Source: Okamejei kenojei (Eukaryota). From it: a stretch of DNA of 64,000 nt. The first letter of the stretch is position 1, and each line of letters opens with the position of its first letter. The stretch lies in NCBI GenBank assembly GCA_035221665.1, contig CM069158.1, positions 6,882,001 through 6,946,000 on the forward strand, written 5' to 3'. Positions 36,801-42,800 of the stretch are shown here, piece after piece. The position numbers were made by a program.

Positions 36801-39800
36801 TAGTTGAGGCCTGTTCATTGGCTATATTTAAGAGGGAGTTAGATGTGGCCCTTGTGGCTAGGGGATCAGGCGGTATGGAGAAAAGGCAGGTACGGGATAC
36901 TGAGTTGGTTGATCAGCCATGATCATATTGAATGGCGGTGCAGGCTCGAAGGGCCGAATGGCCTTCTCCTGCACCTAATTTCTATGTTCTATGTTCAAGA
37001 AATGAATGGACAGGATTGTTATAGTTTTCTAATCTACTTAGAAATATATCGATGCGGCTATCATGTACCATGTAACTTGGGAACCCCTGGTGCCAATGTT
37101 ACATGGGGATAAGTTGAAGTATTGATTTAATATCTGCTTTAGTGAATTAGGGGGAGTTGAGAAGTTGGATGAATTGGTTTAGAGCAAGGTGATGCTAAAA
37201 CGTGGAATATCTTGTCACAACTGACGAACAAAGAAAAATCTGTTGCAGCATCCTAATTTGAGGAAGGACATTTTTGCTATTGAGTGCAGCGTAGGTTCAC
37301 AAGGTTAATTCCCGGGATGGCGGGACTGTATTCATGCCTACTATATTCTGTTGTGCTGAAGCAAAGCAAGAATTTCATTGTCCTAGCTGGGACACAAGAC
37401 AATAAACTCTCTTGACTTGACTGTCATATGATGAAGGAATGGAGCGACTGGGCTTGTATTCACTGGAATTTAGAAGGACAATAGGGTATTTTATAGAAAC
37501 ATATAAAATTATTAAGAGATTGGACACGTTAGATGCAGGAAACAGTTCCCGATGTTGGTAAAGTCCAGAACCAGGGGCCACAGTTTAATAATAACGGATT
37601 TGGCCATTTACTACTGAGATGAGGAAAAAACTTTTTCACAGAGTTGTGAATTTGTTGAATTCTCCGTCTCAGAAGGCAGTGGAGAATGCTGTGGAGAATC
37701 ACAGATGCATTCAAAAAAGAAATAGATAGAGCTCTTAGGGCTAGCGGAATCAAGGGATATGGAGAGAAGGCAGGAACAGGGTACTGATTGTGGATGATCA
37801 GCCATAAGCACATTGAATGGCGGTGCTGGCTCGAAGGGCTAGATGGCCTACCTCTGCACCTATTGTCTTCGTAAGTATCTATGTATCAATAATAGGAAAT
37901 TGTGACCACATGGAAGCAAATATTAAGAGCAAGGAGGTTGTATCGATATAGGCAATTCCAATATAACAAGCACAATTCTCAATATAACAAACAAAATTTC
38001 AATGTGCTTGTTTCGGTGTGCTAACACCTTTTGCATTTAACAGGAACATGCCAGTTTTAACTGCTATTGCAGCCCATTATGCAAGCATCCATTATCTTTT
38101 CAAAGTTTTACTTGATTTGCTTAATATTTGACAATCTTGTAATTGCTGACCACCTTCTTGCAGGCTGCAGCAAGACACGTTTACAAGAATGCAATTGACT
38201 GGTGTGTGGCTCTAATTGATGACTATCGAATTAGAAGAGGTGAGTTGAAGGGTTTTGAAGTGTTATTGTGGTCTTTTTTTCCTTCAATCCAATTGTTCGG
38301 AGCTATAAATATTTCTAGATGTCATTTGGCTTTAATTTGACAATCAAAAGATTTTAATTTGTACTACTTTCATTTAAGGTACTAGTTTGGAAATAACTTT
38401 TAAAATTTAATTTAGTTTGGAGATGTGAAGGCGTCTATAACGCGAAGTTATTCAGTTGCTGACTTGATTAGTATTAAAATAAAATTTGTCCACTTGACTG
38501 TATGTATTGAACTTTCTTGGCAGGTTGTGGGTCCTTCACAGGTTCCTTTGTTGAATATTGTACAGCTGAGCTCAGTAAGTATTTTTGACTTTGGAATGTT
38601 ACCGTTTTAAGTGACCCATGGTTCAATATATTCTACAATGTGGTGAGTTGAATTGAACACCACCTCATGTTAATTGGATTTTGTTTTTGTTTATAATTAA
38701 TGGGAAGTTTGTAAATCATTTTTCTCTAGACTTTATATGATTAGTATTTTAGTTCTCTTTGGCTTGGATCTAAGTTCGCCATCTCGGGAGCAATGTTGTG
38801 TTGTGTATTTGGGTGCTTAGACTTAAATAAGGCTCGGACACGGGAGTAAACTAACAAGCCTCTTTATTCCAGGACGTCACCTTGAGTCTCCCTCGCGCAT
38901 GCGTCCTTGCACAAGACATCACATATGCTAATTATATCACATACCTAACACTCCTCCCCCTTTTACTTGGAGGCAGGTAACACCATTTCTATTACATACC
39001 TAACACTCCTCCCCCTTTAACTTGGAGACTGGTAACACCATTTCTATTACATGAACCGGACTCCTCCCCTTTAAGTCAATTTCACCTGCATGGTATATGC
39101 TCTTAACTTGACATTTCATTGATTGCTGTTTGAATACACTGTTGCAAAATAGTATTATTACATTCATCTTACAATGCATCCTCATAACTGTAATAATCCT
39201 ATCTAAACCAGCACTTATAATTTTTTCCATCCACCCATCTTCCTTAAACTAAATACATTGCCCCTTGCTTTGTGTTATCATTTTCAGTTCCTTTATGTGT
39301 AACACTTTCTAATCACTCTAGCTCGACCTGTATCTCTGCTTCTTCCCTTTTTACATGTCCTAATCTAATTTGCAAATTTCTTCCTGTTCCTGATATTCTG
39401 CGTTTCTTTTTTTTTGGTTCATGTATTTGTTTTGTTTTCCTCTTTGTAGGTGGGATTTGACCTATGGCTGCAAGTTTTCGTTTTCCAGCAGCTTCCTCTG
39501 TTCAATTTCCATTTGCTGCGTATTTATCTGCTCTTGTTGTTTAATGAGATTCTGCAATGCATAACCATTTGTCCATTGCTCAGTGAAGGAGGCTCCATGG
39601 TGGACTATACAGAAGCGTCCTAATCGCAATCGGTCCTGCATACTTTTGTCTTGACCGACAAGCCTCTCTTCTTTAGACTTTTCTATTAGCAGCTTTCTAC
39701 TCGTTGTCACACATTTATTTAACCTTTCTTTGTATCATTTAAGCCTTTTCTGTTGTTCATCTATTTGTCCACTTACATCTCTGGTTTTTCATCATGAAGT

Positions 39801-42800
39801 AAGATCTATATTGTCTTTGCAATACAACGGTGGCTTTGATTTGTGCTCTGTATAATTTTCTTGTTTTATAAGCACGGTAGTGAGACTGCACTATAACTGC
39901 TGTATAATTCAGTTTGAGGAAGTCTTTCCTATATCGTTTAAGCCTTTTGTATCGTTTCAGCCTTTTCTGTTGTGCCTCTATTTGTCCTCTTGCGTCTTTC
40001 CTATACCAACTCATACGGAGTACTGACTGAACTTTTACAGTAGCTCTCTGTTGCTTAACCCACTGCCTAACCACCATACTCTTGTAGGCAGCCTGAATGG
40101 TAATAGTTGTATCCCATATTGACTGATGTTGCACAAACTGGGAATGCCCTATTTTGCATGCTTTGTACCATCTCTGGATCGAAATGACTGCTTGTCCCAT
40201 AGCTCTGTAGCGTACCCTTAATCGGTAACCACGGTATGTAGCTTGCAGAGTGACTACAGCCGCCTTTTACATCAAGAAATGCTTTCTTGTAATGCACATC
40301 CTTATGAATGACTTAATATGGCGTGCTGCCTTGATTTTCTCAACCAATACTCTGGGTTTGATCCCGCGGTATAAGACCTGAATACAAACCACTGCTTTTC
40401 TCAAACTATTATGTCTCACTTGGACATTTCTTATTTGGCAAGCTCTGTATCGTTGCTGTATCGCAATGGCAGACCAGCGTAGTTTCTTGAAATACTGATG
40501 CTGGTTATGCATCTGATAATAAGTCTGTATGACCTTGGCAGATTTGTGCATGCACCGCAATTGCCTTCGAACATGCATTCCTCGGTAGGCAGCCTGAAGC
40601 AGCACAACGCGGCTGCGTACCTTCATGTAGGTTTTGCGATCACTTTCCATTTGAAGGTGTGCCCTATAATGGGTTTGTACTATTATAGCTGCCAATCTCC
40701 TTGCCTTGTATTCACGGTATACTCTGTGCATTATAAATGCTGCTTGTATTACCGTTGATGCCTTCTGTTTGTTCCAGACCTCTCTCTGTACCCTTCATAC
40801 CCTTGAATACAGCTTGAATAATTAGGGTTGCCCTCTGGATGGCAATTTCCCTTTGCCTTTGACTTTTTTCCTTTGCCTTTTACCCTTGGCCTTTTGCACT
40901 TGACGTTCGTCACTTGGCACTTGACTTTTGTCCTTTGAGGGACTCCCTGCCCTCTTTAGTTCGGGCTCCATGCCTCTGGATGCCCTTGGAGGTTTTGGAG
41001 AGAAATGAGCCATTTAATGCCTCCTTACACTCCTCGTAAGTTTTATCCGTGGGCTTTGCTAGCCGCAGTAACGTACGTAAGGTGTGATAACCCTCTCTTC
41101 ATAAGCCTAATATGAACCATGTTCTCCTCTGCAGTGATATCATTGGAAATGAACGAAGCCTCCAAGACTTCAGTCCATTTCTCAAAATTACACCCAGAAT
41201 CTAACTGGGGCAACTTTTCTACCATTTGAAAAGCCATGCTACCTGTTGCTATTCAGGTGCCCTATATTCTGTTCTCTCGCTGTGTTTTCTGCCCTGGACT
41301 TAATCCTTTTACATTCTAAGAGATTATCCATCTCACTGACTATTACTCATTCTTATAATAATAGATTTATACAATTAACCAACATTTCATGTTAATAGCC
41401 AACTACAACATTGTAAACCATATTCCTTCTATGCGCACAGATTTACTATTAATAACAGTGACCAATGCATTACATCCAAACAGTCCTGCTTTTACTTGAA
41501 GTAATAGTGAACAATGCATTACATTCAAAGAGGGCTTTTATTGTGAAGGATTTCACCACTCCAGCTTGTCGGCCTGTGGACTCTGGTGCATCCTCGACCT
41601 CTCTGATTCTCAAGAGGTTCTCCCAAAGACACTTGCTTTTGCTGCTGGCCTCCCCGGACCTCAGCGTTACTTTTAAATTCTGCTGGCCACTCCAGACCTC
41701 CGATGTTGCTGCTGGCTCAGCCGTTGCTGTTGCCTCCGCTGGCTCGTAGCCAAGTCGACACCCGCTGTTCCACTGACTTGCCTGCTGTCTCCCTTGGACG
41801 CCCTGTGGAAGGTAAGTCGCTGCTCATTACTGCTGCTGGTCCCCGCTGCTCCAAGCGTCGAGAATGTGGCTGGCTCAGAGATGCCAAGTGTCCCGGATTC
41901 GCCGTATTTTATCCCGGCGAAATAAACTTTTTACGGTGTTCTGGCAGCCAAACATGCTGTTACGGAACACCGCCGCGCCGGTGTTCCTCCCGTGGTGAAC
42001 ACCGGCGCCATGTCCTGGGGGAGGGTTGCCGGGCCCCAGTGGCCGCGCGTGCGCAGTGGGGGAGGGTTGCCGGGCCTGGCGCCATTTCGAGCCACGCCAC
42101 GCCCGGCCCAGAGCCCGGGCGGCGCCGGCCCGCGCGATCAGCGGCACTTTCTTGCCGCCAGCCGGCCGCTCGCGGCAGCCCCATCACCGGGCCTCCCCCC
42201 CCCCCACCCCCACCCAGTGCGCAGGCGCAGACCCGCCGGCAACCTTGCCAAGTGCGCATGTGCCGCACCCGCCCGCCGGCAGCCCGCTGATCTGCACCAG
42301 TGCGCAGGCGCATAGCCGCCGGCAACAACCCCAGGTGAGTATGTTACGGAGAGAAATGCATTTAACCCCATTTGTTACGGACAAATGGGTTAAATGTTAC
42401 TGTGAACTAAATTTAGGGTTGGCATCTCTGCATATACCCCCTCATTCCCTGCACTTCCATGTGCCTGTCTACAAGCCTCAAACCACTATTGCATTTTCCT
42501 CCACCACCATCCCTGATAATGTATTCCAGGACTCCACTTCTCTCTGTTTGTAAAAAAAAAAGCTCCATTAAACGTTCCCCCCCCTCTCACCTGGCAGCTA
42601 TGCACTCTAATATTGGACATTTAGACCCTGAGATAAAGGATCTATCTACCTTATCTCTGCCTCTTATAATTTCTCAAGTCTCCTCAAACTGATGTTCCAG
42701 GGAAAACGATCCAGATTCATTTAACCTCTTTCTAAAGCTGAAACCCTCTATTTCAGGCAGCATTCTGGTAAAGAATCATTCTTTGTGCTTCCAAAGCGTC

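What the first reader, a model, noticed from the sequence alone, without database searches (positions are those of the whole stretch)
38794..41875. Gypsy-like LTR element carrying about 1 kb of captured ASPM-like IQ-repeat coding sequence
Seen: on the minus strand the order is gag-like N-terminus, a basic ORF, about 1.05 kb of tandem IQ motifs (39771-40821), element-like sequence, PPT, then a 157-bp TG...CA LTR, all antisense within a PWWP3A intron. Established: long, closely spaced IQ arrays of this style characterise the giant exon of ASPM, and LTR elements can transduce host mRNA. Inference: a non-autonomous LTR element replaced most of its pol with ASPM sequence. If this is a multicopy family, it is spreading a calmodulin-binding module, and the host pre-mRNA carries about 1 kb of antisense ASPM-like sequence.
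Basis: partly seen in the sequence, partly recalled or inferred. Interest (0 to 1): 0.82.

Follow-up and report, generated by a model that had tools for sequence, protein, structure and literature searches.

The report
Decayed retroelement carrying ASPM and TLK fragments
A dead, pol-less retroelement-like insert in an intron of a PWWP3A-like gene joins a retrotransposon gag start to pieces of two host cell-division genes (ASPM IQ repeats and a Tousled-like-kinase coiled coil), an example of a known way in which retroelements shuffle host exons.

Summary
The IQ array is real and ASPM-like. All 12 hits carry IQ; 8 of 12 are named ASPM.

The start is retrotransposon-gag-like. This rests on weak family evidence, plus an unnamed 290-residue database protein (P0013). 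P0013 has the same gag start, repeat linker and IQ array as one open frame.

It is the intronless pre-kinase region of a Tousled-like kinase (PDB 5o0y_A, E=8.8e-35).

The 157-bp TG...CA stretch with a polypurine run and AATAAA is there. No second LTR copy, target-site duplication or pol exists in the window, so "LTR" and especially "Gypsy" stay unproven.

The window copy is dead, with at least 5 frameshifts and 3 in-frame stops.

Best reading: a degenerate copy of a non-autonomous chimera made by LTR-mediated retroposition (template switching). That mechanism is described for flies, zebrafish, chicken and mammals, and for maize Bs1. This would be a new member of a known kind.

Copy number in the source genome could not be counted.

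The parts
41238..41875 (-). Upstream leader-like sequence of unknown extent. The 5' boundary of the element is not defined.
   Evidence: No Pfam or PDB match. RNA fold is no better than shuffles, z=-0.01. No similarity to the 3' LTR-like stretch.
40987..41237 (-). gag-like N-terminal segment (broken: 2 frameshifts, 1 in-frame stop).
   Evidence: 74 of 93 aligned residues identical to P0013 residues 1-95. P0013 1-95 lies nearest to retrotransposon gag families in the Atlas. Pfam DUF7041 E=0.028, below the cut-off.
40850..40986 (-).
   Evidence: Short tandem repeats. 26 of 37 aligned residues identical to the P0013 linker.
39781..40849 (-). ASPM-like IQ-repeat array (broken: 1 frameshift, 1 in-frame stop, 1 in-frame 24-codon insertion related to the start of the TLK segment).
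   Evidence: Pfam IQ. ASPM hits. 23/27 spacing. Insertion seen as a 24-residue gap in the alignment to P0005 and as repeat family D2.
39316..39780 (-). Tousled-like-kinase fragment: pre-kinase coiled-coil region, no kinase domain. Broken: its frame differs from the IQ frame, and it has at least 1 in-frame stop, at least 1 frameshift and about 29 residues fewer than the human chain.
   Evidence: PDB 5o0y_A residues 83-167, E=8.8e-35, about 63 of 85 identical. Chain residues 166-187 and 234-252 match in another frame.
39096..39315 (-). Internal 3' sequence of unknown origin.
   Evidence: No Pfam or PDB match.
38951..39095 (-). Polypurine runs inside a 55-nt unit repeated about 2.6 times. Each unit holds a purine run followed by the first bases of the LTR-like stretch.
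   Evidence: (family D1).
38794..38950 (-). Putative 3' LTR: 157 bp, TGTT...AACA, TATA-like word, AATAAA. Single copy.
   Evidence: Sequence. No second copy in the window. No TSD-like word next to a TG upstream.

Best explanation
This is a degenerate, immobile copy of a non-autonomous chimeric retroelement made by LTR-mediated retroposition.

Inferred origin: reverse transcription of an LTR-type element began or ended on element RNA. It then switched templates to co-packaged host mRNAs, first an ASPM message (IQ array) and then a Tousled-like-kinase message (coiled-coil region). Everything from mid-gag to the polypurine tract was replaced.

The product was one fusion frame: gag N-terminus, repeat linker, ASPM IQ array, TLK coiled coil. 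At least one better-preserved relative (P0013) still carries its first 290 residues as an open frame.

Shown:
- the order and identity of the pieces;
- the lack of introns, pol and kinase domain;
- the sharing of the gag-linker-IQ junctions with P0013;
- the decay of this copy.

Inferred:
- the template-switch origin;
- the LTR nature of the 3' end;
- spread in trans by an autonomous partner;
- loss of the 5' LTR.

In this locus it most likely does nothing beyond adding about 3 kb of antisense sequence to a PWWP3A-like intron.
For: ASPM identity:
- 12 of 526 candidates passed E<=1e-5. All 12 carry IQ, 8 of 12 are named ASPM, 5 of 12 have ASH and 3 of 12 have CH domains.

TLK identity:
- 5o0y_A at E=8.8e-35 over chain residues 83-167, continuing to residue 252 in another frame, with no intron-sized gap.
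- Human TLK2 has 22 exons (PMC5992133, figure legend), so the piece must span several exons. This last step is inference.

gag:
- Representative search gave 4 hits at E<=0.001. Two are relevant: P0013 and P0016, a 48-residue gag-like start.
- Atlas neighbours of P0013 residues 1-95 are DUF7041, DUF4939, Retrotrans_gag, Ty3_capsid and DUF1759.

Same junctions in P0013:
- gag 74/93, linker 26/37 and IQ 78/95 residues identical.
- The P0013 IQ segment scores higher than the window's against 12 of 12 ASPM-like proteins. The window copy is therefore the more decayed one.

Interleaving of the two host pieces:
- A 24-codon in-frame patch, 87% identical over 52 nt to the start of the TLK segment, sits inside otherwise contiguous ASPM sequence. 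It is flanked by a 12-nt direct repeat. Repeated template switching would produce this.

Other points:
- No poly-A around the pieces.
- The mechanism and multi-gene chimeras are documented in animals (PMC5131818, passages).
Against: - Only one LTR-like stretch exists. No second copy turned up in six local-alignment comparisons. Five scored below the shuffled maxima and one was marginal, 32 against 31.
- No TSD. PBS not tested.
- PPT-like runs followed by TG are frequent by chance: 18 in the window.
- The gag assignment rests on a sub-threshold Pfam match (15.3 bits against a cut-off of 28) and on a feature-based Atlas lead.
- The gag query found nothing among longer proteins.
- The second IQ stretch found no near-length relatives.
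- The Atlas has no large cluster like whole P0013. A large family is therefore not shown.
- P0013's source is unknown. It could be an orthologous locus of another species rather than a second copy.
- Colinear mapping onto ASPM was seen in only 2 of 12 proteins, and the array is internally repetitive.
Confidence: 0.65

Rival explanations
1. A host chimeric gene, not a mobile element. A gag-derived gene fused to ASPM and TLK sequence exists in this lineage, with P0013 as its product. The window holds a decayed DNA-level duplicate or old paralogue of it.
For: - P0013 keeps 290 residues open across all junctions.
- No LTR pair, TSD or pol here.
- PPT-like words are common.
- No large family is visible.
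Against: - The unit is intronless.
- It starts with a retrotransposon-type gag N-terminus.
- It ends with a purine run, TG...CA and AATAAA on the same strand.
- It lies antisense in an intron among other transposons.
Confidence: 0.15
2. An endogenous retrovirus that transduced host genes as a gag fusion, like the gag-onc fusions of transducing retroviruses, rather than a Gypsy-type retrotransposon.
For: - Short LTR-like end with TATA-like word, AATAAA and a polypurine run.
- The gag-host fusion frame.
- ERVs of crocodilians captured host mRNAs (PMC4299795, passages).
Against: - The neighbours of the gag start are retrotransposon gag families, not retroviral matrix or capsid families.
- No env, pol or retroviral Pfam domain is present.
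Confidence: 0.1
3. Independent events: separate ASPM and TLK retrocopies that landed by chance next to a gag remnant.
For: Several unrelated transposons are nested in this intron.
Against: - P0013 shares the gag-linker-IQ junctions in one frame.
- A TLK-related patch lies inside the IQ array.
- All pieces share one strand and abut without poly-A or duplications.
Confidence: 0.05
4. An assembly artefact joining unrelated sequences.
For: None found. There are no N runs at the junctions.
Against: An independent database protein carries the same gag-linker-IQ join.
Confidence: 0.02

Closest known systems
LTR-mediated retrocopies and multi-gene chimeras (Tan et al. 2016, Genome Res, PMC5131818; passages read)
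   Same: - Partial, intronless host mRNA pieces replace the internal ORFs of an LTR element.
- Two or more parental genes can be joined.
- No poly-A.
- The chimera can be copied again as a non-autonomous element.
- Insertions often lie inside genes.
   Different: - Here only one LTR-like end is present.
- Microsimilarity at the switch points could not be tested.
- The copy is old and decayed, whereas that study looked at young copies.
Maize Bs1 retroelement (as described in PMC13317346 and PMC5131818; passages)
   Same: - A pol-less LTR element.
- Fragments of several unlinked host genes form a hybrid reading frame.
   Different: - Bs1 is a plant element with both LTRs and shown expression.
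- Here the host is a vertebrate, the host genes are different, and there is no expression evidence.
Crocodilian ERVs that captured KIT-ligand and nectin3 mRNAs (PMC4299795; passages)
   Same: - A vertebrate germline retroelement carrying captured host mRNA.
- Several copies share one capture.
   Different: - Those are recognisable ERVs with pol and whole captured ORFs under purifying selection.
- Here there are only fragments, fused to gag, with no pol.
gag-onc fusions of transducing retroviruses (established knowledge; host-mRNA capture by retroviruses is cited in PMC5131818)
   Same: - The N-terminal gag is fused in frame to host coding sequence that replaces viral genes.
- Template switching explains the origin.
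   Different: - No retroviral domain was found.
- This is a germline copy.
- The captured pieces lack catalytic domains.

Membership tests
ASPM (as source of the IQ block) | Long array of IQ motifs at about 23/27-residue spacing | tested here: met
   Pfam IQ in both long open stretches. Spacings 23, 27, 23, 23.
ASPM (as source of the IQ block) | Closest database relatives are ASPM proteins | tested here: met
   8 of 12 hits are named ASPM and 8 of 12 carry ASH or CH domains with IQ. Identity is only 32-48%, and only proteins of 308-2000 residues were searched, so full-length ASPM was not examined.
ASPM (as source of the IQ block) | ASH and CH domains and the C-terminal region of a whole ASPM gene | tested here: not met
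   No such domain in any open stretch of the region. It is a fragment.
Tousled-like kinase | Colinear match to the pre-kinase coiled-coil region | tested here: met
   5o0y_A residues 83-252, best piece E=8.8e-35. TLK1 against TLK2 could not be told apart.
Tousled-like kinase | Protein kinase domain | tested here: not met
   No Pkinase match. The match ends at chain residue 252.
LTR retrotransposon / ERV (any) | Two long terminal repeats in direct orientation | tested here: not met
   No second copy of 38794-38950 in the window.
LTR retrotransposon / ERV (any) | gag gene | tested here: inconclusive
   Only about 85 N-terminal residues are present. DUF7041 E=0.028 is below the cut-off. The Atlas neighbours are gag families.
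LTR retrotransposon / ERV (any) | pol (protease, reverse transcriptase, RNase H, integrase) | tested here: not met
   None in 14 open stretches of the region.
LTR retrotransposon / ERV (any) | Polypurine tract abutting an LTR that starts TG and ends CA | tested here: met
   Present, but of low specificity: 18 comparable runs followed by TG in the window.
LTR retrotransposon / ERV (any) | Target-site duplication and primer-binding site | tested here: inconclusive
   No TSD-like word next to a TG upstream. The 5' end is undefined.
Ty3/Gypsy (Metaviridae) | pol domain order and reverse-transcriptase phylogeny | not testable with these tools
   No pol is present in this copy. No eukaryotic genome collection was on hand to find an autonomous partner.
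LTR-mediated retroposition chimera | Microsimilarity between element and host mRNAs at the switch points | not testable with these tools
   This needs the host's ASPM and TLK genes and the parental element. Only an internal 12-nt direct repeat around the TLK-related patch was seen.
LTR-mediated retroposition chimera | Further copies sharing the same junctions | tested here: met
   P0013 shares gag-linker-IQ. Whether it is a paralogue or an orthologue is unknown.

The most novel reading that the evidence does not exclude
The family's fusion frame is kept open by selection, as P0013's 290 open residues hint. That frame is a gag N-terminus, a calmodulin-binding ASPM IQ array, and the TLK coiled coil that mediates TLK dimerisation (PMC6023931). 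It would encode a working protein. That protein could be an element-borne factor that interferes with host spindle or chromatin-assembly kinases, or a domesticated gene of this vertebrate lineage. The window would then hold a dead copy of it.
Probability: 0.1. Interest if true: 0.75.

Novelty: new member of a known kind. Interest (0 to 1): 0.45.

Why it matters
The region is a clear vertebrate example of exon shuffling by a retroelement. Parts of two unlinked cell-division genes are welded to a gag start in one reading frame.

If intact copies exist, they would carry a calmodulin-binding module and a kinase-dimerisation module without the catalytic parts. Such a product could act as a dominant interfering protein or as raw material for a new gene.

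For annotation, the region should not be called an ASPM or TLK paralogue.

Tried and rejected
Open stretches were sent instead.
- The gag query against longer proteins found nothing.
- The second IQ stretch against near-length proteins found nothing.
- The Atlas could not read the window's own gag stretch. Whole P0013 gave no usable hit.
- A search for a 5' LTR by repeats, self-BLAST and local alignment found nothing.
- A search for a TSD found nothing.
- Using flanking LINE tails to fix the insertion borders gave no significant similarity.
- The leader RNA fold was no better than shuffles.
- tRNA and Rfam scans of the window were empty.
- PDB searches of three further open stretches were empty.
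- P0014 and P0015 were rejected as spurious repeat matches. One is a bacterial B-repeat protein and the other a plant GOST protein.
- The genome contigs, phage, plasmid and E. coli collections were not used, since they hold no animal genomes.
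Full report
**What is there.** The window has no N. Read on the minus strand, the region runs in this order:
- a leader of unknown extent (from about 41875 or further upstream down to 41238);
- a gag-like start (41237-40987);
- a basic, repeat-rich linker (40986-40850);
- an IQ array (40849 to about 39781);
- a second coding-like block (39780-39316);
- about 220 nt without any match;
- a 55-nt unit repeated about 2.6 times, each unit holding a purine run (39095-38951);
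- a 157-bp stretch (38950-38794) that starts TGTT, ends AACA and holds a TATA-like word and AATAAA.

**The IQ array is ASPM-like.**
- Pfam IQ matched both long open stretches of the array, at E=3.3e-8 and 5.5e-13 with 2 and 5 stretches.
- A strict motif pattern found 8 cores spaced 23, 27, 23 and 23 residues. Residue shuffles gave a mean of 0.5 and a maximum of 4 in 1000. By eye there are about 14 motifs.
- A search among longer proteins with the 175-residue open stretch scored 12 of 526 candidates at E<=1e-5. All 12 carry IQ, 8 are named ASPM, 5 carry the ASH domain and 3 carry CH domains. The four not named ASPM are two unnamed proteins and two 'hypothetical' proteins.
- Identity is only 32-48%. 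Only proteins of 308-2000 residues were searched, so full-length ASPM, including that of the source species, was not examined.
- In solved structures the best match is the myosin-Va IQ region, at only E=2e-4.
- The two stretches map side by side in 2 of 12 ASPM-like proteins (P0002, P0003). In the others the best registers differ, because the array is internally repetitive.

**A second captured gene.** In fact its 90-residue open stretch matches human Tousled-like kinase 2 (PDB 5o0y_A, chain residues 83-167, E=8.8e-35, about 63 of 85 residues identical).
- The match goes on in another frame to chain residues 166-187 and 234-252. The next 22 residues matched nothing.
- In that crystal only 288 residues, the kinase domain, are ordered. 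The coiled-coil domains upstream of it mediate dimerisation (PMC6023931, passages). The captured piece is therefore the pre-kinase region.
- No kinase domain is present.
- The match has no intron-sized gap, while human TLK2 has 22 exons (PMC5992133, figure legend). That the piece comes from spliced mRNA is an inference from this.
- TLK1 and TLK2 could not be told apart.

**The two host pieces are interleaved.** A 52-nt stretch at the start of the TLK block recurs at 87% identity inside the IQ array (family D2, E=4.6e-11).
- The alignment to ASPM-like P0005 shows a 24-residue gap exactly over this patch.
- The patch is in frame and is flanked by a 12-nt direct repeat.
- Repeated template switching would leave this pattern. 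Replication slippage could too.

**The gag-like start and an independent relative.**
- Pfam found nothing in the window's own gag stretch. A search among longer proteins also found nothing.
- The exhaustive representative search gave 4 hits at E<=0.001. Two are spurious repeat proteins.
- One real hit is P0016, a 48-residue gag-like start.
- The other is P0013, 290 residues. It reads as one open frame: the same start, a longer version of the linker made of 7-residue repeats, and the same IQ array.

| Segment | Identical / aligned residues | Breaks in the window copy |
|---|---|---|
| gag part | 74 / 93 | 2 frameshifts, 1 stop |
| linker | 26 / 37 | 1 frameshift; 63 P0013 residues without counterpart |
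| IQ part | 78 / 95 | 1 frameshift |

- P0013's IQ segment scores higher than the window's against 12 of 12 ASPM-like proteins, so the window copy is the more decayed one.
- For family assignment, residues 1-95 of P0013 lie nearest in the Atlas to DUF7041 (0.94-0.95), DUF4939, Retrotrans_gag, Ty3_capsid and DUF1759 clusters. This is a lead, not a test.
- Pfam gives DUF7041 at E=0.028, 15.3 bits against a cut-off of 28.
- No paper in the library mentions DUF7041.
- 'Gag-like' is therefore reasonable. 'Gypsy' is untested.

**State of this copy.** These are counts only, added to those above.
- The IQ array also has 1 in-frame stop and the 24-codon insertion.
- The TLK block is out of frame with the IQ array.
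- The TLK block has at least 1 in-frame stop, at least 1 frameshift and about 29 residues fewer than the human chain.
- In all there are at least 5 frameshifts and 3 stops in about 1.9 kb.
- No pol, env or other element gene is present.

**The ends.**
- No second copy of the 157-bp stretch exists in the window. Of six local alignments, five scored below the shuffled maxima and one was marginal at 32 against 31.
- No TSD-like word precedes a TG upstream.
- Purine runs of 12 nt or more followed by TG occur 18 times among 85 runs in the window. The polypurine evidence alone is therefore weak.
- The leader folds no better than shuffles.
- The 5' border is undefined.

**Context.** On the + strand lie PWWP3A-like exon matches:
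- PWP3A-B_N at 7938-8093 and 10691-12043 (weak, below cut-off);
- the MUM1-like PWWP start at 28887-29123 (E=2.4e-9);
- PWP3A-B_C at 45741-46208 (E=1.4e-38).

The insert is therefore intronic and antisense. These exons were searched one by one.

I do not take the window for human. It holds a DIRS-like element with a tyrosine recombinase, and several CR1-like LINEs. Its TLK and ASPM pieces are far from the human proteins.

tblastn found no other piece of the chimera elsewhere in the window: 13 HSPs inside the region, 0 outside.

**Mechanism and comparison.** The anatomy fits LTR-mediated retroposition. Reverse transcriptase switches from element RNA to co-packaged host mRNAs at short similarities and back again. 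This replaces internal ORFs, sometimes joins several genes, and yields chimeras that can be copied again as non-autonomous elements. [quoted passage not shown]

Maize Bs1 joins fragments of three host genes in a hybrid frame (PMC13317346, passages). Crocodilian ERVs captured KIT-ligand and nectin3 mRNAs (PMC4299795, passages).

I found no report of an ASPM or TLK capture.
- Of 61 papers holding two of 'ASPM', 'LTR retrotransposon' and 'IQ motif', the 12 listed had no occurrence of 'LTR retrotransposon'.
- Three papers hold 'tousled-like kinase', 'retrotransposon' and 'captured'. None is on this topic, judging by title and abstract start.
- The supplementary tables of PMC5131818 were closed and may list such cases.

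**Verdict.** The finding is real and richer than described, but of a known kind. The claims 'Gypsy', 'LTR' and 'multicopy' remain open. The antisense-ASPM idea could not be weighed without the host's ASPM.

**Unchecked.**
- Copy number and borders in the source genome.
- P0013's cluster size and origin.
- The fold of the gag start.

Noticed in passing
window 61045-63850 (-): DIRS-like retroelement. Open stretches match a tyrosine recombinase (Phage_integrase and its SAM-like N-terminal domain), a Dam-like methyltransferase and a reverse transcriptase. It runs towards the window's end.
   Followed up: no
window 33836-36990 (+), and a second tail to about 37890: Non-LTR retrotransposon with a GDSL-lipase-like ORF1, an endonuclease and a reverse transcriptase (RVT_1 E=7.8e-32). 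A second, shorter LINE 3' fragment follows it. The strong GC skew at 34-38 kb coincides with it.
   Followed up: partly
window 17122-22790 (-): Further reverse-transcriptase fragments with an ALKBH8_N-type match. A 343-residue open stretch at 21762-22790 has no Pfam match.
   Followed up: no
window 41967-42341: A block of about 375 bp at about 79% G+C, flanked by a 9-nt direct repeat (TCCGTAACA), just upstream of the leader. A 14-nt palindrome lies next to it at 42362-42394. It may be a separate insertion. Its nature is unknown.
   Followed up: partly
window about 42400-43000 (-): The translation looks like the C-terminal part of a CR1-like LINE reverse transcriptase, cut short at its 3' end near 42420 (read by eye; resemblance recalled, not tested). 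It has no nucleotide similarity to the LINE tails at 36-38 kb.
   Followed up: partly
window about 38161-38238 and 38523-38575 (+): Two short open stretches with splice-acceptor-like and donor-like borders, 220-630 nt from the LTR-like end. They could be exons of the PWWP3A-like gene. No Pfam match.
   Followed up: partly
window 12000-16000: G+C rises to 0.49-0.54, with many overlapping open stretches on both strands and no Pfam match. It lies just after the long PWWP3A-like exon.
   Followed up: no
P0016 (48 residues, unnamed source): A second, shorter protein with a related gag-like start (62% identical over 34 residues). This hints that the gag family exists apart from the chimera.
   Followed up: no
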